Positions 8,006-51,566 of a DNA stretch of 64,000 nucleotides are shown here, one piece after another. The DNA comes from Trypanosoma brucei (Eukaryota). A program made the position numbers and the translations under genes. The first letter of the stretch is position 1; each line of letters begins with the position of its first letter. A model generated the notes under the pieces. That model saw only the letters and a list, made by a program, of their open reading frames with translations, was not told where the DNA came from and made no database searches. The DNA lies in contig CM000208.1 of NCBI GenBank assembly GCA_000002445.1, positions 1,184,001-1,248,000 of the forward strand, read 5' to 3'.

Positions 8006-10143
8006 TCCTTTTCTCCTTCTTCTTCAAAGCGTGTCTCAAGATAGAGAAGTGAGATGAAGAGCACCATTTAGAGTCGGAAGCGGTGAAGGAATTAAAACAA
8101 CGAAAAGATAATATTATTTTTTCCTTTGCTAAAGGGAAGAAAATGCCGTTACATAATCAACGAAACAAACAGCACAATCACACACGAATGCACCGCGCCT
8201 ACACGCAGTACAAAGAATTCGCGCATGCACTTTAATGAATACTGAATGCTGTGGGAAAACAAAAACAGAAACAAGGTATAGGCGCTGTGAGAAAAGACAG
8301 GAGTAAGGAAAAACAAAAAGATGAGCGGTGAATTTAAAAGAAAAAAAGGAAAGGGGGGAAAGAAGAGGGGGGGGAAAGAAAAAAAAAAAAATAGCGCCAG
8401 CAAAGAAAAAAAAAGAAAACGTTTCTAAAACCTTAAAGCTTAAAGAAACGGTGCCGTTCCTTCATGCTTACGCACACGTACACACACTTCCTCTCCCTTT
8501 CCAACACTGCATGTTATGTTACATCACCACAACTAATAACAACTAATAATAATATTAATACTGAAATTGATATCGTGAAAAATAGCGAAAGAACGTTGTG
8601 ATGCGGCTGGGCAATGATGCAGAGGTGAGGTTGGTCATGTGAGAAAAGAACAGCGTGCTGCAACAAACGCAAACAAAAAGAATATACGAATCGATACAAA
8701 AAAGTAAGGAAGGGAAAAACACATCTTCAAGAGGTTGTCGATCACTGGCAATTATTGCATGATATGTTAGACGGTAAATGAAGCGGATACAAATAAACAA
8801 GGAAATAGAAGGGGGGAGAAGTGGAAAAGTGGAGCAAAAATAAGACAAGAACAAAACGAACTTGTGGGTTTGGAAAAAGCGAAAGTGATGCCCAATCTAC
8901 CTGAAACTGCCAGTTGAAAAGATGAAGAAAAGTGGGGCGGAAAAAAATGGCCCCGTACGTCCACAACTCAATTTGCACTCAGTAATCCCCAAGTGCACAT
9001 AAACATTTCAATCATCTTCTTTTTAATTATTTGTCATCCAGCTAGATTCCTATAAAATTAGGTTATGAGAAGGCAACAAGCACGGCCAGAAGACAGGAAA
9101 CTGCCTCCGGTGCGATTATGAAAATTATTAGTCTTTTTTGTCCTCCCTATTCTTCTTTTCCCCTTCCTACTCACCTCTTTATTTATTTTCGCTGAAACCC
9201 CTAGTATTCTTCTACACCACGCACTCCCTTTTTTTTTTTCTGTCCCATTATTTTTACCTTTTTTTTTTCTGTACACCAACATCTCATAAAAATGTTTGTG
9301 TTTTGAATCACCATACGGTGCCATCCACCTGCTACTGTGAAAACAAAATCAAATCGAAAAAAAGAATGAAAAGCACTTTTCCCCCTTTGTGACGTGACAG
9401 AAGAAACTCCATATCAGGTGGGTCCCCCTTTAACTCTAAGGAAAAAAAAAACAAAGCGTCAACAGAGGGTAACAGAGAAAACAGAACAGAATAAAGAAAA
9501 AGAAAAGGAAATTAACAAAAACAGAGAAACGTGTACCTCGTACATACATGCAAACAAAATGAGGCACAAACACGTGCCGGAAATGGGCAACCGACATGAC
9601 TCTTCTCTCTTCTGACGCTTTTATATTTATTGTAACTTTCATTTTCTCTCATCCACCCACAGGATTTTATTGCGCATCGAGAGCCAAGAGGTGTCACATT
9701 CAGTGCCATGTGCATACGCAGAGAGGGAGGGCTGCACATTCATTAAAAGCGAATGAAAACCACAAACAAATATGTGTCCACCGCTATACGGAAATGAAAG
9801 GACCTATCGATGAGGAATATACATCACCACTCCTCCCATCCTTTTGATTGAAGCACAAATACATCCACCATAAATAATTACCGCGTGCTGATTTTGCATT
9901 TGTACGACTGCCAACGATTATTCGACGGTGCCGTTTCCTCCGCAACCCTTTTCTCTCTTCGTTCTGTCTTTTGTTTTGCTCCTTCCATCTATTGCCTTTG
10001 TTGTTATTTACGTTAAAACCGACAACTTTTCATTGGTTGTCCTCATATTTAGCCGTTAATACGGTCAATCAGGATGCCCTCACGCAAGCGCATAAATGCC
10101 TTAGATCTACACTTTACTTGGGTCTAAAACCCCCACACCATAC

Positions 10144-17648: not shown

Positions 17649-18059
17649 TTACTTCCCCTTCTGCAACTTTAACAGCAATTTTTCCTTTACTGAAGTTTTG
17701 ACCGTGGGTGCCTCCACTGCGACAGTGTTGCCGAAGATGGCGGTGGCTTCTTCACGTTTCCGCTTATGCGACATGATTTGCTGCAACACGTATGCCTCTT
17801 GATCCTCAGCTGACTTTCTTGTCGGTCCATTCGGTCCTGGAGTGTTAGGCAGCGGATCAAGGGCGCTTACCGCGGTGCTCCTATCGATGTTGCCGACCCT
17901 GCTCCCGGCTATACCACTGTCCTCTCCGGTTCCACGACCAAACACCTTCTCACGAAGCGCACGCCGCCGCTGTTCACGCCACGCCACCGGGTCCTTACAC
18001 AACTCCAGTAAATCTGGGTTGACATCTTGAAGCGAACCATCATCCCCATCGTGGGACAT
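17649..18059 (-). CDS. Hypothetical small protein (~136 aa from Met at 18059; ORF track extends to 18182)
   Basis: ORF in array orientation; acidic N-terminus, basic C-terminus; no family recognised. Confidence 0.3.
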   Translation of the reverse strand: MSHDGDDGSLQDVNPDLLELCKDPVAWREQRRRALREKVFGRGTGEDSGIAGSRVGNIDRSTAVSALDPLPNTPGPNGPTRKSAEDQEAYVLQQIMSHKRKREEATAIFGNTVAVEAPTVKTSVKEKLLLKLQKGK

Positions 18060-18555
18060 CGCCCTAATACTACGCAGTATAAAAGGGCAAGGATGCAGCG
18101 GCGTCAGGCAGCAGATAAGTGTCCCCACACTCACCACGCAGGGACACACAAATGGGGGAGGAACAGTTCGCAACAATACCAAACGATACTATGAGCATAT
18201 AAACCTGTCACACACGAAAATCCCACTGGAGGAGAACGTGGCACACAAATTCGACCCCGCTCAGATGGTAAACCAGACAGTGACATCTCACTTTACAAAA
18301 AACTCAAAAAGAACGCAGCAGATGACAAATCGTCACGGCAATTTCACAATATGAGGTGGGCGGAGAATGGATGAAGGAAAGAGATAGTAGTCATAACGGT
18401 GGGCTCATTGTAACTATGACATGTTGTATTCGTAAATAATCATACGGTAAGGTCACCAAAAATAATACGTGTTGGAATCACTGCACAATAAACCGTCTGA
18501 CAGCCTATTCCTATGTACTAGCCAAGATGGGAAAGGTAATACATACGCACATGCG

Positions 18556-18643
18556 AAATTGCTCAGTCGGTAAGTCATGTAACATCTCACTTTACAAAAA
18601 ACTCAAAAAGAACGCAGCAGATGACAAATCGTCACGGCAATTT
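18556..18643 (-). ncRNA. Candidate C/D-box snoRNA (88 nt), copy 1
   Basis: Minus strand reads 5'-AAAUUGCc-GUGACGA-(63 nt)-CUGA-GCAAUUU-3': C-box-like GUGACGA (one mismatch to RUGAUGA), D box CUGA, perfect 7-bp terminal stem; on the transcribed strand. Confidence 0.45.
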
Positions 18644-18854
18644 CACAATATGAGGTGGGTGGAGAATGGATGAAGGAAAGAGATAGTAGTCATAACGGTG
18701 GGCTCATTGTAACTATGACATGTTGTATTCGTAAATAATCATGCGGTAAGGTCACCAAAAATAATACGTGTTGGAATCACTGCACAATAAACCGTCTGAC
18801 AGCCTATTCCTATGTACTAGCCAAGATGGGAAAGGTAATACATACGCACATGCG

Positions 18855-18942
18855 AAATTGCTCAGTCGGTAAGTCATGTAACATCTCACTTTACAAAAAA
18901 CTCAAAAAGAACGCAGCAGATGACAAATCGTCACGGCAATTT
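18855..18942 (-). ncRNA. Candidate C/D-box snoRNA (88 nt), copy 2
   Basis: Identical C box/D box/terminal-stem arrangement one repeat period (299 bp) downstream of copy 1. Confidence 0.45.
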
Positions 18943-19658
18943 CACAATATGAGGTGGGCGGAGAATGGATGAAGGAAAGAGATAGTAGTCATAACGGTGG
19001 GCTCATTGTAACTATGACATGTTGTATTCGTAAATAATCATGCGGTAAGGTCACCAAAAATAATACGTGTTGGAATCACTGCACAATAAACCGTGTGACA
19101 GCCTATTCCTATGTACTAGCCAAGATGGGAAAGGCAGACGTATAAACCCAATGCCGCTCAGTTTCTTGTGTCTCAGTGACATCCTACTTTAAACGTCAGT
19201 TCAAACAGAACGCATTTATTGACAGGGCATCATAGCGGCGATCAAACTAAGGTAGCGCAGTGACAGCTAACTCATTGTAACTATAACATGTTATATTCGT
19301 AAATAATCATACGGTAAGGTCACCAAAAACAATACGTGTTGGAACCGCAGCTTGGTGCAATAACTTGGAAAATCACAGCTCCCAGTATCTAGCCGTAAGA
19401 TCGGTACCAACCGTGGCGGCTCCGCAACCGTTGGTACCGACGCTACCGGGGCAGGGCAACGTCCGTTACAGGCATAACGCTGCAGCGATCCTTTGGCAAG
19501 CAAAGCTACGGAAAAAAGAAACACAACCAAGAGATGTGCCACCATGCGCTCGAAAGTTTATGAGTTCAGTAAACAGTCGGACAAAAGAGACTATCCCTAC
19601 ATCTCAAGCACATTAACACACGGTGGGGTTGCACAGGCCTGTACAAAACGTAATTATG

Positions 19659-19661
<3 letters not shown>

Positions 19662-19698
<37 letters not shown>
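19662..19698. repeat. (AT)n microsatellite
   Basis: ~18 AT units read directly; second (AT)n at 19975-20004. Confidence 0.95.
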
Positions 19699-19701
<3 letters not shown>

Positions 19702-19970
19702 CTGCTGTGACCTAAAGAAAAAAGTGAATAGAAAGAACGGGAAAACCGAAAGGCAGGGACGTCGATGTGTGACAGAAGGAGATGCCCTCTACCGACCCAC
19801 CCGCTCATCCATCCTAGAACGTATAAGATTTTGTACATTCCAGCCACGGCAGCACGCTCCTAGCAACCAAGAAAAATAAAATGTAGTTTGTGCAAACGGT
19901 TATGCAGCGTCCCCACCACCAAAAAAGAAAAAGGTAAACCAAAGCAAACAAAGGCGGGGGAGCATAAACG

Positions 19971-20009
<39 letters not shown>

Positions 20010-20084
20010 GGGGGACCAACAAGAGCCCTCGCAAGTACTTGAAACGAAACTAAAGGAGAAATAAGGGAAAGCACAGGCCCACAC

Positions 20085-21830
20085 CTACGCAGAAGAACAT
20101 TGACTTGTATCCAATAACTGATACGGATCGTACCAAATCGGAACCGACACACCCCCGAGGTCCACACCCGCAGCTTTACGAAGAGCCTTACGCCACTCCG
20201 CCTGACCGTCCTCGCAATACTTCGCCTTGCGGTCCATGAAGTTGTTTACGTCCCCCTCCGCTTCAGGATCCGGTAGCGTAAGAAACTCCGTAGGAAGCCG
20301 CCTGCAGCGGGAATTGGAAACACAGAGCTGGGGCTTGACCGAGTGTCCATCGCTGGAAGCTACTTTTTGCTCGAGCCCCTCGCGGCCCGTTGGCGGACGC
20401 TTCACACGGGCAGGTTGCTCTAGATCCCGATGCGAAGGCATGAGCACGTACCGAGCTTCGAGCTCCCTCACTAAGTTTGTCCACTTCTCACGCTCTCCCT
20501 TTGGAATTACTTCGATGTTCCGAAGCCAGTCCAGGTTCCGCCGGCCTCGGCCGTTCAGGTCACGCAGCCATGACTGGCGACTCTCGGTACCCCATGACAT
20601 AAGTCGCATCCGGAGCAGCTTCTCCACAAGACCAAAAAGAAATTTAAATTGGCATCCCCACTTGGGTTCACCCACGAAACGTCGCAGGACAGCTATTCCA
20701 CCGTTACCTTCAAACGAACGTTGAATGCTCTCGTCAGATTCCACAATGATGTCCGTTAAACTTTCTGCCTGCTCGGCGGAGTCACATACCTGACATAGAC
20801 GAACAAAAGTCAGTACCATGTTTGATCTATCCTCTCCCAATCCCCTCGCTGAAGGGCTCCCCATGATTTGTGTCAATTTTTCCCTCCAGCGTGTTCGTCT
20901 AGGTGAAAAGTCGTCTACCTGTTTTGCCATAGCGGGTACGACAGGGTGTTCCATGTTTATCCTCTGCTGGATTCTAGTGGCTGGTGGATAACACATGCTA
21001 CTGGCGTGTGAGTTCGAGCAGGAAGGAGTGGAATCCGTAACCCCTCCCATGCTCTCGCCTCTGGATGTACCGTCCGTGTTAGCGAGTACGGTAACCTCCG
21101 TTGTTTTCATACTTAGCCACGATCCACTCCGGAGGTAGTTTTCTACACCTTGGCGCCTGTGGGAAGCGGATGGGAAGCGCACATTCGACGCCATGCTAAG
21201 GTTTTGGTATCGTGTCCCCCCTTTCCGCCAGTCAAGGAACTTTGTATGATATGTTTGCTCCGAAAAGACACCCCCAGGTATACCCGATTCGGAGATTAGG
21301 AAATAAATAAACTGTTTGACCACCTCGTCCCACTTGGGGCGGTTTTCTTCAGATATGACATCGTAGAGTAACTTTAACATGTCGCAGCTAGTCGCGTAAG
21401 AGATCGCCAGTCCGCTCTTGTTTCCCCATGTATACCGGGGTTTTTTTACACCATTCTTCACCGCCTGAACAGCCTGCTTTTCATACTCCAAACGTACCTG
21501 TTGAAGGAACATCTCAACAGCCACTCGAAAATAGTCAACAACTCTGTAATGGCCGTCTGGAAAACTATCATAGTTGGAAGCAACATACCGGACTACGTTA
21601 CGCGCAGAAGGGGAAACATGAATAACACTATCGTCGGGTTTTAGGAACTGTAGATTTGGGTTTCGCTTAACATTGCGGAACACTGGGTCATGACCGGAAA
21701 CTGAGGAAGTTTCACCAGAGAAAACGCTCGTTGCACCCTCTGATATCTGTCTGCTAGTGCGGGAACCGACTGAGCTTGGCGCGCTACTCAGAGAACTCTT
21801 ATATGAAGTGTCATACCCCGACGAACCCAT
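20085..21830 (-). CDS. Hypothetical protein (~581 aa from MGSSGYD… at 21830; ORF track over-extends to 22052 into a repeat element)
   Basis: Long ORF in array orientation; polypyrimidine tract + AG on coding strand just upstream of Met 21830; no family recognised. Confidence 0.5.
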   Translation of the reverse strand: MGSSGYDTSYKSSLSSAPSSVGSRTSRQISEGATSVFSGETSSVSGHDPVFRNVKRNPNLQFLKPDDSVIHVSPSARNVVRYVASNYDSFPDGHYRVVDYFRVAVEMFLQQVRLEYEKQAVQAVKNGVKKPRYTWGNKSGLAISYATSCDMLKLLYDVISEENRPKWDEVVKQFIYFLISESGIPGGVFSEQTYHTKFLDWRKGGTRYQNLSMASNVRFPSASHRRQGVENYLRSGSWLSMKTTEVTVLANTDGTSRGESMGGVTDSTPSCSNSHASSMCYPPATRIQQRINMEHPVVPAMAKQVDDFSPRRTRWREKLTQIMGSPSARGLGEDRSNMVLTFVRLCQVCDSAEQAESLTDIIVESDESIQRSFEGNGGIAVLRRFVGEPKWGCQFKFLFGLVEKLLRMRLMSWGTESRQSWLRDLNGRGRRNLDWLRNIEVIPKGEREKWTNLVRELEARYVLMPSHRDLEQPARVKRPPTGREGLEQKVASSDGHSVKPQLCVSNSRCRRLPTEFLTLPDPEAEGDVNNFMDRKAKYCEDGQAEWRKALRKAAGVDLGGVSVPIWYDPYQLLDTSQCSSA

Positions 21831-45980: not shown

Positions 45981-48900
45981 AATTTTGACAATTTGAAAAA
46001 AGTGCTAGTGGCGACCAAATCATGCAAAAAATCGACTTTCTTTACGTCTTATTACAAATTAATGCACTCACACACGGTGCTCCCGAACACAAAAAAGTTC
46101 AGGGCAAGCCAGAGAGGGAAAAGAGGCGTACGAAAACCACCAAGTGCTATGAAACATAGATGCCAAAAACAAAACCCTATCGCACAACACCACCTTCGTG
46201 GAGTGTCATCGCGGTCCACGCGAGTCCGGGGCCTCCGTGTCGCGCTGCGAGCAGCAACGACATATGGGTGAAGTATGCCCACGCACAATCGTCCTGAAGA
46301 ATAAAGAAAAACTGCTCCATAAGCCTGTTTACAGACACACTTCACAAAGACATAAACAGTAGGATGTCACTGGAATCAACAGACAACTAGGAACAAGGTT
46401 GCAAAAAAAAAGTCCATTTGATTGCTTCTCACATCAAACATTACATACATACACATGCTATACCGCTCTATACCACCTTACGAATCAACATATGGGTGGA
46501 ACCCCCGCACAAAGCGCGTCCTGCACAACAAATCCCCACGACCAATAGCAACCAGAAAATGAGCAAAAGCGGTTACGGCGGCGCCCGCCGCGATGTGCTG
46601 GAAACAGAAGTAAAAGAAAGATGGAGAAAATTCCACAACAACGATCTCCCACATCGGGACGCTGCTCCGCGCTGCAGCATAAGAAAGGGGCTCCTCTCAA
46701 TTTCCATGCTCACACGAGGGGCTGCTAATGACGGGAAGGCTACGAAGATGGTGAAGTAGCCACAGGGGTCCCCCGTCCGCTTCGGATCCGACGATCGTCT
46801 GTCGTACCCCATCGCCTGTGAACAAAATGTCCCAAACCGAAGAAACCCCAGCTCTCTCCGGCGCTCTAGCCCCAGCCTCGCTACGGTTTTTTGGCCCGCG
46901 CCACCGGCAACCACCAGCAAAGAACGGGGAGGAGCACACCCACGAACTCTGGTGCCCCAAGGCACCGAAGCGTAGTGCGACAAACCGTTAGGAAAGAGTT
47001 GTCACGGACAAAAACGAAAAGAAGAGGAGAAAACCCATGGGGTGCCACTCACACCCATACCGCTAACGCCTGGCACCCGCTTAGGTGAATCAGAGGCAAA
47101 GAACCACCTCTCCACCCGTACCTGAAACCCTTGAAGCAACCACTGCCACTTCGGCCTCTGCAGCGATATCCTCGAGCGCTTTGTTTACATGGGACAGACC
47201 GCTGAGCGTAGGTAGGGAGTAAAGTGACTCAATCACAGTGCTTTTGAGCCTGCCGCAAAAGCGCAGATTTTTCACTTTCTTCAAAAGACACCACGGCCAG
47301 CGGTGCCGGCCACCGACCCACTACAAGCATAGTGGTTGCTAAACATGGGGTGGTTTTGCCACCACCGCCACCATACGGATCGGTAACTAGTTCCCGCCGG
47401 CCGCTACTTGTGGCAGTAGCCAGTTGACGGGGATAGGGCGGTAGTGATGTATGTTGACCTTTTGCCACGGCTCGATCCTCCGTCCCACCGATGCGCCGGC
47501 ACCTCCATCAGTACGCTGAACGCGGAGCACTACAAGCTGCGTTAACAACCGGATGAGTTTCCCATTTCGGAAAGTAAGATTTCGCCGATCGGAAGGTTGA
47601 TCATCCCCTTGGTTTTTGCGACTTAATGAGCATGTTGGACGCTCACGATTTGGAAGTCAGTTGTGGGTGCTGCAGCGGAGGCCCTGGAGGGACACGAAAT
47701 CGCGCATTGCATTTCGATAAACGCAGTGCACCATTATAAAAGCGATTATTCACGTTCGGTGGGGAGTCTTCATCACACTTTACTGTGCCGCAAATGATGC
47801 ACCACGGTAAATTCGGGGCGAAATCAAAAGGTACCAGCATACGGTTCCACTGAAGATACAATCCTGAGACTGTAGTATTCAGGAGGGACCCAGCAATATT
47901 TGCAGTGAGAGAAGAACTGACCTATTGGCCCACCGAGACGTCCACCAACACGATTCTGTCCTCCTCATGCGTTACCATGTGAATGCGCGCACTTCCCTCC
48001 CCCCATACACACACCACCCCAGAACTGATGCATGTCTGGTATATCTCGAACAACTTTACACCCCGCTAACGCGTGGCTCCGTTCAACTTCTTTGAAGTGT
48101 GATTTTGCGAAGGCACCCCCACCCCTAATCCAAACTACAACTTTTTACAATCATCTCTCGGTGTCTAAAAGCTCGTTATTCGCTGCAAAGCGTTGGTTAA
48201 GCACAAAATTGTATACGCCTACGGACTACATAGTACCCGAGTTCAAAGAGAACCATCGACAGCTACCGCAGCGTTCCCACTATTCAGCACAACGGGGCAC
48301 TTCCGAAGTACTGTAGGTAACGGCCGATAGTCTGTGGAATTATACACTTTACACAAACAGGGCATATAATTATGCGGTGATTTCCCTAGTGTTCGATGCT
48401 ATTCAAGATGTGAGAATGCATTTCCTACGGTGACTAAAAGTGTGTTATATCGACATAGTTTTCCCCCGCACATACTAATAATATACTATGCGGTGTTATG
48501 TGCACAATATGGGAGGTGTGGCTACTGTATATGTTATTTGTTAACTCTTCCTTCGGATGAAACACTACAGTGTCACACCTCTCCTTCTCACATCATATGT
48601 ATGTGCTTCACCTCACATTATTACTCCATACCATCGTGTTCTAATGGGAAAAATAATGCGGAATGATAGATTAGGTGAAAAAAGAAAAGATCAGAAAGGC
48701 ATGACTATCTCTCTCTATGGTGTGTGGTATACGCTGTTGATGCTTTGAAAGTTCTGCATCATCACGTGATATCGTATATCCACATGCTGTGTGCATGTAT
48801 TCGTGTGATGCATGCTTGGAACAATGGAGAGTGTGACCATGTCAGTTTGTGTTCACCACCGTGCTCTTCATCTGTAGGAGTAGGTAAAACTAACAACAGA

Positions 48901-51566
48901 TCATCAATATTTCAACGAAGGGAAGACAGGGTCGGTTTTAATATGCGGCCGCCGAGTATCGGAGCAACGGTGGAGCCCCAACGTATCCGTAGTGTTCAAC
49001 CCCCTCCGTTGCGGTCTCCGCGTCCCCGCTCCTCATTGTTCGGCCGCTTTTGAAGACGCCACGTTGAGACTGGAACCTGTGTCTTGCCGCTTTTGCTGGA
49101 AAGAGGAAGGAAGATCACTGTGGCCACTAACAGTGGAGGGTCGGGTGTCGTGAGATGTGTCTATCTTCCGTTGGGGTTTTCTTCTTGGGAAAGCGGTTTA
49201 CCTTAGTGGGCGGCGGTAACCTGTTCTATTTGGAAGGATGTCGTGCAGGGGGTGAGTGAGTTTTCTTGACCAAGTTTACGAATTTGTTGTGCACCCCTGT
49301 TTTATCCCACTGCTTGAAGTGTTTCGGAATAGATGATAGGGAGGATGGTATGGCAAGAAACCTGCCGGGACCTTTACCGTTTCACCGCTGACTACATGTT
49401 CCCACAATTTTCTACCATATCCTTCGGGCGGCATTGCAGTGAGAGTGCCATGTGGGACAGGGGACAGATTGGAACTTGATCTTCCGGAGGTCTTCGGAGT
49501 TATAGAGTGATTGCTTCTCTTCTCCTTTCCTTTGGCGTGACTCTCATACGGAGGCTCTTGGTGAGCAGGATACAATTCGCCTGCTGACTTTTTGGTTTAT
49601 TTTTTCCCATATTTCAGTGTTGCGGGGTCACTTTCGGCACCGTTGGGAATCGAGAAGTGACGTATAAAGGTGTTCGCTTCTGCAGCAAAAAGTGGTTCCG
49701 TTTGGTATTCATTTGTGGAGACACTTTCCCTCCTTTCCATTTCGGAAAACTTTTTGTCACGGAAGAAGGGCTTTTGGTATTGTCCCGTCCGATGATCTTT
49801 GCCCCGATCGTTCCATCATGAATAATAGCTACAACTGTGTGTGTCTGTACGGCTGTGGATATTTCCCCAGTCCCCAATCGCTTCGGTCGCTTTTACTCTT
49901 TTATAGCACGGTTTAGAGTTGGTAAACTGGTGCCGTTCTGTGGAAGCAGTGGCCGGAGGAAAGTGTGGGGTGAAGTCGTTAGCTCGTTTGAGTTGACGCA
50001 GGCCTTGGAGAATGTCATGTGGTGACCTCCGTGGGCTGTGGCCGTGTCGCCAATTTGTGGCGGCGCAGTCCTTTGATGTGACTGAATCGGGTGCATAACT
50101 TGTTCTCCGGCCATGCTCACGGTTTTTTTTGTTTTCGCTGCCGCTTCAGCCGTCTTCTCCCCAGCAGATTATGAAATATGGTCCGGCGCGTGGGGGAAAT
50201 GAGTTGGTTCCACCCAAGAACGTTGGAGCCAGAGGCCTATGCTGCCTTTTCCCGTGTGTATTTGTGAAGGGGGGGGGGACGAGGCTCAGAGGAGCGGCAT
50301 GTCCATTTTTTGTGAATCCTCTTTGTCCACTGGGGAAGGAGATTGAAGTCAGGGTTGCCTGGGGGGATGACTCAATGCGCGCCGTCGGATGAGCAAACTT
50401 ATGTTTAGCGGCCCTTGTGGTGATTGCGTCAACCGGTGGGTCGACGGTAGTGGTGAGCTCAACTTCTGTTTTTGAGTTGCCGGAGCTCCGCCGCTGTGCC
50501 GGCAAAGGGGAAGGTTGGTACTGGTTAGCCCTCAGGGTACAGAGTTTGGTCTCAAATACACTGAAGGCGCCCCCTACTCGGCAGCCGCGCCTCTGAGCGC
50601 TGTTCGCCCGGATGAGTTGGTTCGTAGATGCTGCACTGGGCGCTGTGTAAAGCTCGTGGGGGGTTGGAATGGATGTGATAATCGCGTAGCAGTTTAGTGA
50701 GGATGGCGTCGACGGCGACGCCCTTTCGCATCCCTGAAGTCTTTAATATGTCTGTTCTTGTTCGACGAGGGGTTTGCTGCGGATCCCACCAAGAGTTGGT
50801 CTCGCAGTATTTTGGCCGCGGCTCTGCCCACGCTGGGTGAATTGCGCTTTGCCTGGTTTCCCCCGCCAGAGCGGGGTACAGTGGCCGGGCTGCGCGTGTG
50901 GGGTGCCGTCATTGCTGAGTGTGTCGGTGTTGTGCCCGCCCCGTTCCTGTTGCGTTAAGCAGGATTGGGCCCGGTGGGGGTTTGGTGACTCCAACCGAAG
51001 CGTCGGCATGTGGATGCGCCCCATCGTTTCTGGTGGCTGACATGTTTGGTTTCGTCGTATTGGGCCCAGGGTTATAGTGGGCGACAGGGTCTGGCTTGCG
51101 TAACCCGTCGCTTTTTCTTGTTGGCAGTTGGTGCCTTTTATTCGACGGTGGTGGCGTTTTCTGGAAATCGGTCCCCGTTCTGGGGTTCTGTCGTTGAAGG
51201 ACTCCTTGTACTTACCATATTATGATATGCATTTTGTTTGCCACCGTATGGCTTCGTTTTCTGTTTGCGTCCCTAACAGAGCAGGTGGTATCGTGGATAC
51301 CGGCGGTGCGAGGGGTTGTGCATGTTATGGCGGGCTTTGCACGACGAGCCTTGAATCCACCTTTTTTAATTATTTCAGTTCGGATTGCAGGTGATGTGCT
51401 TGCCCACACCCTGCAATTTGTTTAAAGTTTAATGGCAGTGCCGATGCCATTTTTGTCTTGGCGTATGCTAGGCGCGTGAGTTGTAGATGTCTAAGAAAAT
51501 AGTGTTGATATAGCCCTCTGTTTTTTGTTTAAGTGGTGATGTTATTGTTTTTCTTTAATCTTCCTG
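45981..51566. promoter_or_regulatory. Divergent strand-switch region (candidate bidirectional RNA pol II transcription start region), no convincing CDS
   Basis: Flanked by first gene of minus array (…45980) and first gene of plus array (51567…); only short unrecognisable ORFs; 46.0-47.5 kb C+A-rich on plus strand, 49.0-51.5 kb G+T-rich with G-runs (G10 at ~50270). Confidence 0.6.

What the first reader, a model, noticed from the sequence alone, without database searches (positions are those of the whole stretch)
18258..19345. Tandem ~300-bp array inside the minus-strand unit carrying two intact C/D-box snoRNA-like genes
The 2.0 kb gap between the CDSs ending at 18059 and starting at 20085 holds ~3.6 head-to-tail copies of a ~300-bp unit with no ORF. 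On the transcribed (minus) strand each full unit contains an 88-nt element 5'-AAAUUGCc-GUGACGA-…-CUGA-GCAAUUU-3'. It has a C-box-like GUGACGA (one mismatch to RUGAUGA), a canonical D box CUGA, and a perfect 7-bp terminal stem immediately outside the boxes. Trypanosomatid snoRNAs are known to be encoded in tandemly reiterated clusters within such arrays and processed from the polycistronic precursor. This arrangement fits that pattern. The remaining ~210 bp of each unit could hold a second small RNA (for example a single-hairpin H/ACA-like snoRNA); I could not resolve one by eye. The terminal copies are truncated on the D-box side (no 3' stem), as expected for array edges.
Basis: partly seen in the sequence, partly recalled or inferred. 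Interest (0 to 1): 0.7.

Follow-up and report, generated by a model that had tools for sequence, protein, structure and literature searches.

The report
Known trypanosome C/D snoRNA gene array

Summary
The repeat is real. It has a 299-bp unit with three near-identical copies plus a diverged leading copy, at 18247-19351 on the transcribed minus strand of T. brucei chromosome 10.

It is a box C/D snoRNA cluster, but each unit holds two C/D genes, not a C/D gene plus an H/ACA gene.
- **Gene A** (about 88 nt, three intact copies and one copy with a broken C box). Its D guide pairs perfectly over 11 bp with helix 69 of LSU rRNA and selects LSU-beta A520.
- **Gene B**, which comes in three forms.
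  - B1 is canonical. Its D' guide is conserved across five trypanosomatid lineages and selects LSU-alpha A762.
  - B3 has the same 5' half as B2 and a different 3' half.

B2 and B3 appear to work through an upstream D' guide plus a UUGA D' box. This guide pairs over 13 bp with 5.8S rRNA and selects A43.

Published T. brucei modification maps list Am520 as guided by TB10Cs7C2 and 5.8S Am43 as guided by TB10Cs7C3a. The array is therefore very probably the known cluster TB10Cs7.

No H/ACA-like RNA is supported, and the terminal copies are not truncated. Interest is low. One small open point is that B1 may be the conserved guide for Am762, which the literature assigns to other snoRNAs.

The parts
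18247..19351 (-). Whole snoRNA gene array. Order on the transcribed strand: A1(defective) - B1 - A2 - B2 - A3 - B2 - A4 - B3.
   Evidence: It lies between two minus-strand CDSs. The same genes flank homologous clusters in T. cruzi, T. grayi, Leptomonas and Phytomonas.
19266..19351 (-). A1, the edge copy of snoRNA A. Its C box reads GCGGUUC instead of GUGAUUC and one guide base is changed. Probably non-functional.
19153..19239 (-). B1, a canonical C/D snoRNA (probably TB10Cs7C1). C box AUGAUGC, D' guide GCGUUCUGUUUGAA (19200-19213) followed by CUGA, D box CUGA, terminal stem GCCGC/GCGGC. Predicted target is LSU-alpha A762.
   Evidence: The D' guide is conserved in five lineages. Its target UCAAACAGA is present in 42 kinetoplastid rDNA contigs. 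Am762 has been detected by LC-MS in T. brucei.
18997..19084 (-). A2, snoRNA A (probably TB10Cs7C2). C box GUGAUUC, C' AUGAUUA, D guide GUCAUAGUUACA (19007-19018), D box AUGA. Target is LSU-beta A520 in helix 69.
   Evidence: Am520 is assigned to TB10Cs7C2 in PMC9283944 Table 2 and in the PMC10662448 supplement.
18698..18785 (-). A3, identical to A2.
18399..18486 (-). A4, snoRNA A with one substitution outside the guide.
18855..18942 (-). Stem AAAUUGC/GCAAUUU, C box GUGACGA, D' guide CUGCUGCGUUCUUU (18906-18919), D' box UUGA (18902-18905), C' UGAGAUG, D box CUGA. Target is 5.8S A43.
   Evidence: 5.8S Am43 is assigned to TB10Cs7C3a.
18556..18643 (-). B2 copy 2, identical to copy 1. D' guide at 18607-18620, D' box at 18603-18606.
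18247..18344 (-). B3. It has the same 5' half and D' guide as B2 (guide 18308-18321, box 18304-18307) but a different 3' half (GUCACUGUCUGGUUUACCAU-CUGA-GCGG...). Probably the second isoform of TB10Cs7C3.
18786..18808 (-). Spacer hairpin AAUAGGCUGU-CAG-ACGGUUUAUU, immediately 5' of each A gene. Further copies lie at 19085-19107 (loop CAC) and 18487-18509. Role unknown.

Best explanation
The array is a reiterated cluster of box C/D snoRNA genes in Trypanosoma brucei chromosome 10, very probably the published cluster TB10Cs7.

It lies in an intergenic region of a minus-strand RNA polymerase II polycistron. By inference from what is established for trypanosomatid snoRNA clusters, it is transcribed as part of the long precursor and the individual snoRNAs are cut and trimmed out.

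Each snoRNA is inferred to assemble with the C/D proteins (SNU13, NOP56, NOP58, and the methylase NOP1/fibrillarin). It base-pairs with pre-rRNA through the 10-13 nt upstream of a D or D' box. The rRNA nucleotide opposite the fifth guide position is then 2'-O-methylated.

- **snoRNA A**: D guide, targets LSU-beta Am520 in helix 69.
- **snoRNAs B2 and B3**: D' guide plus a UUGA D' box, target 5.8S Am43.
- **snoRNA B1**: D' guide plus a CUGA D' box, targets LSU-alpha Am762.

Shown here: sequence anatomy, synteny, cross-species guide conservation, base-pairing with rRNA, and coincidence with experimentally mapped Nm sites. Inferred: expression, processing, protein binding and actual catalysis.
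For: - **Organism and context.** The flanking protein is 99% identical to a T. b. equiperdum chromosome 10 protein. Gene order is conserved across trypanosomatids.
- **Synteny.** Homologues of both snoRNAs sit at the same intergenic position in T. cruzi, T. grayi, Leptomonas and Phytomonas.
- **Conservation pattern.** In the alignments the invariant blocks are exactly the boxes and two guides. These are UGUCAUAGUUAC in A and GCG-N-UCUGUUUGA in B.
- **Reference rRNA.** Kinetoplastid rDNA was retrieved by a metagenome scan and verified with Rfam: SSU 1290, 5.8S 109 and LSU 2041 bits.
- **snoRNA A.** Its D guide makes 11 Watson-Crick pairs with GUAACUAUGAC in every contig that covers helix 69. 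Position 5 falls on the second A.
- **snoRNAs B2 and B3.** The D' guide makes 13 pairs with 5.8S nt 39-51, with position 5 on A43. Only 5 of 300 shuffles reach this length.
- **Published maps for A and B2/B3.**
  - LSUb_520 (A) is assigned to TB10Cs7C2.
  - The LC-MS fragment is Psi-A-(Am)-C-Psi-A-Psi-G, and the helix 69 pseudouridines are at 518/522/524/528/530.
  - 5.8S_43 Am is assigned to TB10Cs7C3a.
- **snoRNA B1.** Its predicted site A762 is a detected Am, seen in the fragment U(Cm)A(Am)ACAG.
Against: - I could not see the deposited TB10Cs7 sequences or coordinates, because Michaeli 2012 Supp. Fig. S4, Rajan 2020 and Liang 2005 are not held. The identity rests on matching two targets and the chromosome.
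- No Rfam family reaches its gathering score.
- The boxes are non-canonical: A has GUGAUUC and AUGA; B2 has GUGACGA and a UUGA D' box.
- B1's duplex is only 9 contiguous pairs, which is not better than shuffles on its own (170 of 300).
- The literature assigns Am762 to TB9Cs2C2/TB11Cs2C2.
- An earlier table assigned 5.8S Am43 to TB6Cs1'C1.
- The rRNA used for scanning came from environmental kinetoplastids, not T. brucei. T. brucei sequence was verified only at the three target sites.
- B2 is absent from one T. b. equiperdum assembly.
Confidence: 0.85

Rival explanations
1. The amplified 88-nt element (B2) is a decaying paralogue of B1 rather than a working guide. On this reading the real genes of the cluster are only A and B1, and 5.8S Am43 is guided by another snoRNA.
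For: - The C box GUGACGA departs from RUGAUGA, whereas B1 and the orthologues keep GAUG.
- The ancestral CUGA D' box is replaced by UUUU.
- B2 is missing from the T. b. equiperdum assembly, and B3 there has UUGA in place of the D box.
- PMC9283944 Table 2 assigns 5.8S_43 to TB6Cs1'C1.
- The two B2 copies are identical, so they carry no information about selection.
Against: - The substitutions that separate B2 from B1 lengthen pairing with 5.8S from 8 to 13 bp and leave a UUGA box exactly 5 nt from A43. That is unlikely for random decay (5 of 300 shuffles).
- C, C' and D boxes and a perfect 7-bp terminal stem are retained.
- The later and more complete map assigns Am43 to TB10Cs7C3a.
Confidence: 0.12
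2. The repeat is a generic satellite or non-coding tandem repeat, and its box-like motifs occur by chance.
For: Rfam finds nothing at gathering thresholds. Folding energies of the elements are not different from shuffles.
Against: - The unit is unique in the window.
- Homologous elements occupy the syntenic spacer in five lineages, and conservation is confined to the boxes and guides.
- Three guides point at three experimentally mapped Nm residues.
Confidence: 0.01
3. Each unit also encodes an H/ACA-like (AGA-box) snoRNA in the spacer between B and A.
For: - The spacer contains AGA (ACA in the first unit).
- Leptomonas and Phytomonas versions of the cluster do contain a hairpin-plus-AGA element with compensatory changes.
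Against: - In T. brucei the AGA/ACA lies in the 3-nt loop of a 10-bp hairpin, not 3 nt from the end of a 60-70-nt hairpin with a pocket.
- Spacer folds have z-scores of -1.5 and +1.05.
- T. cruzi has only about 45 nt between B and A.
- The Leptomonas element has no counterpart in the T. brucei spacer.
- No Rfam H/ACA-like family matches even at E of 10 or below.
Confidence: 0.03

Closest known systems
T. brucei snoRNA cluster TB10Cs7 (members C2 and C3a named in PMC9283944 and PMC10662448)
   Same: Same species and chromosome. One member guides LSU-beta Am520 and another guides 5.8S Am43, exactly the sites selected by snoRNA A and by B2/B3 of this array. The 'C3a' name implies isoforms, as with B2 and B3.
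   Different: Nothing known to differ. Sequence identity could not be checked because the deposited sequences are not held.
Yeast snR63 / human SNORD46 (guides for the helix 69 Am: 25S A2256 / 28S A3739; site numbers from my own knowledge)
   Same: They work alike. The guide pairs with the universally conserved GUAACUAUGAC of helix 69 and methylates the second A.
   Different: No demonstrable homology: the Rfam snR63 match is 10.6 bits against a gathering score of 50. snoRNA A is about 88 nt with variant boxes GUGAUUC and AUGA, whereas snR63 is 255 nt.
Rfam RF00133 SNORD33/Z195
   Same: Overall C/D layout and length. It is the best Rfam match to B2 (23.1 bits, E 0.49).
   Different: The score is below the gathering score of 44. 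The SNORD33 D guide for 18S is not shared. B2's functional guide is the D' one, against 5.8S.
Other reiterated trypanosomatid snoRNA clusters (for example TB10Cs1-Cs5 and TB11Cs4, listed in the PMC3091756 supplement)
   Same: Tandem units of a few hundred bp, several snoRNAs per unit, located inside a Pol II polycistron, with variable copy number.
   Different: Most of those clusters mix C/D and H/ACA-like genes. The T. brucei version of this one has only C/D genes, while its Leptomonas and Phytomonas counterparts do include an H/ACA-like gene.

Membership tests
Box C/D snoRNA (class) | C box (RUGAUGA) near the 5' end and D box (CUGA) near the 3' end, retaining the GA dinucleotides needed for the K-turn | tested here: met
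   B1 has AUGAUGC and CUGA. B2 and B3 have GUGACGA and CUGA. A has GUGAUUC and AUGA, variants that are conserved in five lineages. The edge copy A1 (GCGGUUC) fails.
Box C/D snoRNA (class) | Short terminal stem bringing the C and D boxes together | tested here: inconclusive
   B2 has 7 bp, B1 has 5 bp, T. cruzi B has 5 bp with one G-U, and B3 has about 4 bp. A has no consistent stem across species.
Box C/D snoRNA (class) | Guide of about 10 bp or more, complementary to rRNA and immediately upstream of D or D', with a known Nm at the nucleotide paired to guide position 5 | tested here: met
   A: 11 bp, Am520. B2/B3: 13 bp, 5.8S Am43. B1: 9 bp (plus 3-4 more if one guide base bulges), Am762.
Box C/D snoRNA (class) | Stable 70-100-nt RNA bound by NOP58/NOP56/SNU13/fibrillarin and dependent on NOP58 | not testable with these tools
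   No expression or CLIP data are available here. The literature reports expression for the named cluster, but the figures and supplements are not held.
T. brucei cluster TB10Cs7 | Located on T. brucei chromosome 10 | tested here: met
   None of the other listed chromosome 10 clusters (Cs1-Cs5, Cs2', Cs4') lies near this position.
T. brucei cluster TB10Cs7 | Contains a C/D snoRNA guiding LSU-beta Am520 (C2) and another guiding 5.8S Am43 (C3a) | tested here: met
T. brucei cluster TB10Cs7 | Sequence identity to the deposited TB10Cs7C1/C2/C3 sequences and coordinates | not testable with these tools
   The sources holding the sequences are not held.
Trypanosomatid H/ACA-like snoRNA | Single hairpin of about 60-75 nt with an internal pseudouridylation pocket and an AGA/ACA box 3 nt from the 3' end | tested here: not met
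   The spacer folds differently and its AGA lies in a hairpin loop. z-scores are -1.5 and +1.05. There is no Rfam hit.
Rfam SNORD33 (RF00133) and snR63 (RF01259) | Covariance-model score at or above the family gathering score | tested here: not met
   23.1 bits against 44, and 10.6 bits against 50.

The most novel reading that the evidence does not exclude
B1 (probably TB10Cs7C1, which has no assigned target in the tables I could read) may be the evolutionarily conserved guide for LSU-alpha Am762. A 2023 map reported that site as novel and attributed it to TB9Cs2C2/TB11Cs2C2.

B2 and B3 may have arisen from a B1-like gene after tandem duplication. The D' box shifted 5 nt upstream: CUGA was lost and a UUGA from inside the old guide was recruited. 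A few further substitutions followed. The shared GCGUUCU core was thereby retargeted from LSU-alpha to 5.8S A43. This would be a worked example of how a methylation guide acquires a new rRNA site.
Probability: 0.4. Interest if true: 0.3.

Novelty: already known. Interest (0 to 1): 0.15.

Why it matters
The finding matters little beyond annotation. The cluster and the modifications it guides are already in the T. brucei literature.

Three things here are useful:
- A correct parts list for the locus: two C/D genes per unit, and three B isoforms.
- The demonstration that the amplified element works through its D' guide rather than its D guide.
- A testable suggestion that B1 is a conserved guide for Am762, and that B2/B3 illustrate guide retargeting after duplication.

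Helix 69 and 5.8S modifications are of some interest because rRNA modification levels change between the parasite's life stages.

Tried and rejected
- **Rfam.** The gathering scan of the whole window gave 0 hits. The E-value scan of 18000-20100 gave only sub-threshold hits, plus microsatellite artefacts on the (AT)n tracts.
- **First target guess for A.** I first took the target to be yeast A2220/snR47. This was wrong. Counting against the pseudouridine positions in helix 69 shows it is the A2256/snR63 site, which is T. brucei A520.
- **First alignment of B2 to B1.** It suggested that B2 had simply lost its D' box (UUUU) and guide. I rejected this once the 5.8S pairing with UUGA was seen.
- **Other guide regions.** The D guides of B1, B2 and B3 and the D' region of T. 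brucei A have no rRNA match better than shuffles and are not conserved between species.
- **H/ACA-like RNA in the spacer.** Not supported.
- **Literature.**
  - Liang 2005, Barth 2008 and Rajan 2020 are not held.
  - The Michaeli 2012 supplement is not held.
  - Sequence-string searches of the paper library found only 28S R2-target papers.
  - The Doniger 2010 tables list no snoRNA at this position.
- **Exact-protein look-ups.** The 581-aa flank protein and P0005 found nothing.
- **Upstream part of the spacer (19352-20084).** It shows no conservation with other species.

Full report
**Observation.** The repeat exists as described. Tandem Repeats Finder reports a 299-bp period at 18283-19134, with 2.8 copies at 99%. 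The repeat finder gives three in-register 299-nt copies and four copies of an 81-nt core, the fourth at 19271-19351 with 93% identity. About 3.6 units is therefore a fair description. The array lies in the 2.0-kb spacer between two minus-strand ORFs: the upstream one ends at 20085 and the downstream one starts at 18059. It contains no ORF of 100 aa or more and occurs nowhere else in the window. The 88-nt element with GUGACGA, CUGA and a 7-bp terminal stem is present twice, at 18855-18942 and 18556-18643.

**Context.** The upstream protein is 99% identical to a Trypanosoma brucei equiperdum chromosome 10 protein. The window is therefore T. brucei chromosome 10, and positions 1 to about 48000 form a minus-strand polycistron. 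I used orthologues of this protein to fetch the syntenic spacer from these sources:
- T. b. equiperdum (L001), T. cruzi (L002-L004) and T. conorhini (L005, where the contig ends at the spacer);
- T. grayi (L006), Leptomonas pyrrhocoris (L007) and Phytomonas (L008);
- a second T. equiperdum assembly (L129, where the contig also ends at the array).

**Anatomy.** Read on the minus strand, each unit holds two box C/D genes.
- **Gene A** (about 88 nt; intact at 18997-19084, 18698-18785 and 18399-18486). Its features are C box GUGAUUC, an internal GUGA, C' box AUGAUUA, the stretch UGUCAUAGUUACA, and D box AUGA. The leading copy at 19266-19351 has GCGGUUC in place of the C box and is probably dead.
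- **Gene B** comes in three forms.
  - B1 (19153-19239) is canonical: GCCGC-U-AUGAUGC, the guide GCGUUCUGUUUGAA, CUGA, a C'-like box, then CUGA-GCGGC.
  - B3 (18247-18344) has the same 5' half as B2 but a different 3' half, with its own CUGA.

The terminal copies are therefore paralogues, not truncations.

**Comparative evidence.** Homologues of A and B occupy the same spacer in all five lineages.
- In the A alignment the invariant blocks are AUGAUUC, the C' AUGAU, and UGUCAUAGUUAC(A/G)AUGA.
- In the B alignment the invariant blocks are GAUG of the C box and GCG-N-UCUGUUUGA followed by C(U/C)GA. The 3' guide region differs in every species.

Conservation limited to boxes and guide segments is the signature of functional C/D snoRNAs. 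Copy number varies: L001 has two units fewer, and two assemblies break at the array.

**Targets: reference rRNA.** No T. brucei rRNA was available. I scanned metagenome contigs with a kinetoplastid 5.8S anchor taken from published T. brucei primers. This gave 78 kinetoplastid rDNA contigs. One of them was verified by Rfam as SSU, 5.8S and LSU.

**Targets: results of a snoscan-like search.** The search required an ungapped duplex covering guide position 5.

| Guide | Best pairing | Nucleotide at position 5 | Shuffles reaching this length |
|---|---|---|---|
| A, D guide | 11 Watson-Crick pairs with GUAACUAUGAC in every contig covering helix 69 | second A | 11/300 |
| B1, D' guide | 9 pairs with UCAAACAGA in 42 contigs | second A | 170/300 |
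| B2/B3, D' guide CUGCUGCGUUCUUU followed by UUGA | 13 pairs with 5.8S nt 39-51 | A43 | 5/300 |

- For B1, the conserved GCG can add 3-4 further pairs if one guide base bulges. That base is the only variable position in the guide.
- The D guides of B1 and B3 and the D' region of T. brucei A also find nothing above chance.

**Match to experimental maps.**
- PMC9283944 Table 2 lists LSUb_520 (A) as guided by TB10Cs7C2.
- PMC10662448 places the helix 69 pseudouridines at 518, 522, 524, 528 and 530. Its supplement gives the LC-MS fragment Psi-A-(Am)-C-Psi-A-Psi-G for Am520/TB10Cs7C2. This fixes A520 as the second A of GUAAC, which is exactly the residue selected by snoRNA A.
- The same supplement lists 5.8S_43 Am (fragment GA(Am)G(Am)AC) as guided by TB10Cs7C3a. 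That is the residue selected by B2 and B3.
- It also lists LSU5_762 Am (fragment U(Cm)A(Am)ACAG) as a novel site, attributed to TB9Cs2C2/TB11Cs2C2. That is the residue selected by B1.

Two different genes of one chromosome 10 array hit the two sites assigned to two members of one chromosome 10 cluster. This makes identity with TB10Cs7 very likely. The natural reading is C1 = B1, C2 = A, and C3a/C3b = B2/B3. I could not see the deposited sequences, so this remains an inference.

**Mechanism.** By inference from established trypanosomatid biology, the array is transcribed with the polycistron and the snoRNAs are excised and assembled with the C/D core proteins. Each then guides 2'-O-methylation of the rRNA nucleotide paired to the fifth guide position.

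- The class is correct.
- The proposed D-box guide is not supported.
- The element's working guide is the D' one.
- The rest of each unit is a second C/D gene, not an H/ACA gene.
- The spacer AGA/ACA lies in the loop of a 10-bp hairpin.
- The edge copies are paralogues.

**Rivals.**
- *B2 is a decaying copy.* This fits its odd boxes and its absence from L001. However, the substitutions that distinguish it from B1 lengthen the 5.8S duplex from 8 to 13 bp and leave a UUGA exactly in register.
- *Generic satellite.* Excluded by synteny and guide conservation.
- *H/ACA-like gene in T. brucei.* Not supported, although the Leptomonas and Phytomonas clusters do carry one.

**Novelty.** The cluster and two of its targets are published, so this is already known and the interest is low. 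The residual novel reading has two parts. First, B1 may be the conserved guide for Am762. Second, B2/B3 may be a retargeted duplicate of it, created by a 5-nt shift of the D' box.

Noticed in passing
window 20085-21830 (-): The protein upstream of the array has a weak match to the JBP1 DNA-binding domain (PF18526): 21.2 bits, below the cut-off of 25, at aa 97-210. The Phytomonas orthologue carries the same Pfam mark. It may be the base-J-binding protein JBP3; that name is from memory and was not tested.
   Followed up: partly
window 19380-19500 (-): Just upstream of the array, 121 nt fold very stably (-51.7 kcal/mol, z = -2.2), including a 9-bp perfect hairpin GGUACCAAC/GUUGGUACC. BLAST found no counterpart in the T. 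cruzi, T. grayi, Leptomonas or Phytomonas spacers. Function unknown.
   Followed up: partly
L007 about 8683-8752; L008 about 9063-9128: The Leptomonas and Phytomonas versions of the cluster contain a conserved single hairpin with an internal loop, followed by AGA. The upper stem shows compensatory changes. This is a typical trypanosomatid H/ACA-like snoRNA. It is absent from the T. brucei, T. cruzi and T. grayi spacers.
   Followed up: partly
L002 8299-8398, L006 8228-8327, L007 8915-9014 versus window 18997-19084: snoRNA A of T. cruzi, T. grayi and Leptomonas keeps a second (D') guide, CAUGCUUUC followed by GUGA. It pairs over 11-12 bp with SSU rRNA GAAAGCAUGGG in 13-15 kinetoplastid rDNA contigs. 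T. brucei A has lost this guide. PMC9283944 Table 2 lists no Nm site between SSU_721 and SSU_1517, the stretch where I estimate this target lies (about SSU 975).
   Followed up: partly
L001 7918-9336; L005; L129: Copy number is polymorphic or hard to assemble. One T. b. equiperdum assembly has two units fewer and lacks B2 altogether. Its B3 has UUGA in place of the D box CUGA. Two other assemblies (T. conorhini and a second T. equiperdum) have contigs that end at the array.
   Followed up: partly
window 19661-19698 and 19975-20004: Two perfect (AT)n microsatellites (19 and 15 repeats) lie in the upstream part of the spacer. They produce spurious sub-threshold Rfam miRNA and pestivirus matches.
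   Followed up: no
window about 48000-50000: GC skew changes sign here. This is consistent with a strand-switch region between two polycistronic units.
   Followed up: no
window 18487-18509, 18786-18808, 19085-19107 (-): A 10-bp hairpin (AAUAGGCUGU / ACGGUUUAUU) abuts the 5' end of every intact A gene. It might mark a processing site. It is not seen in the other species.
   Followed up: no
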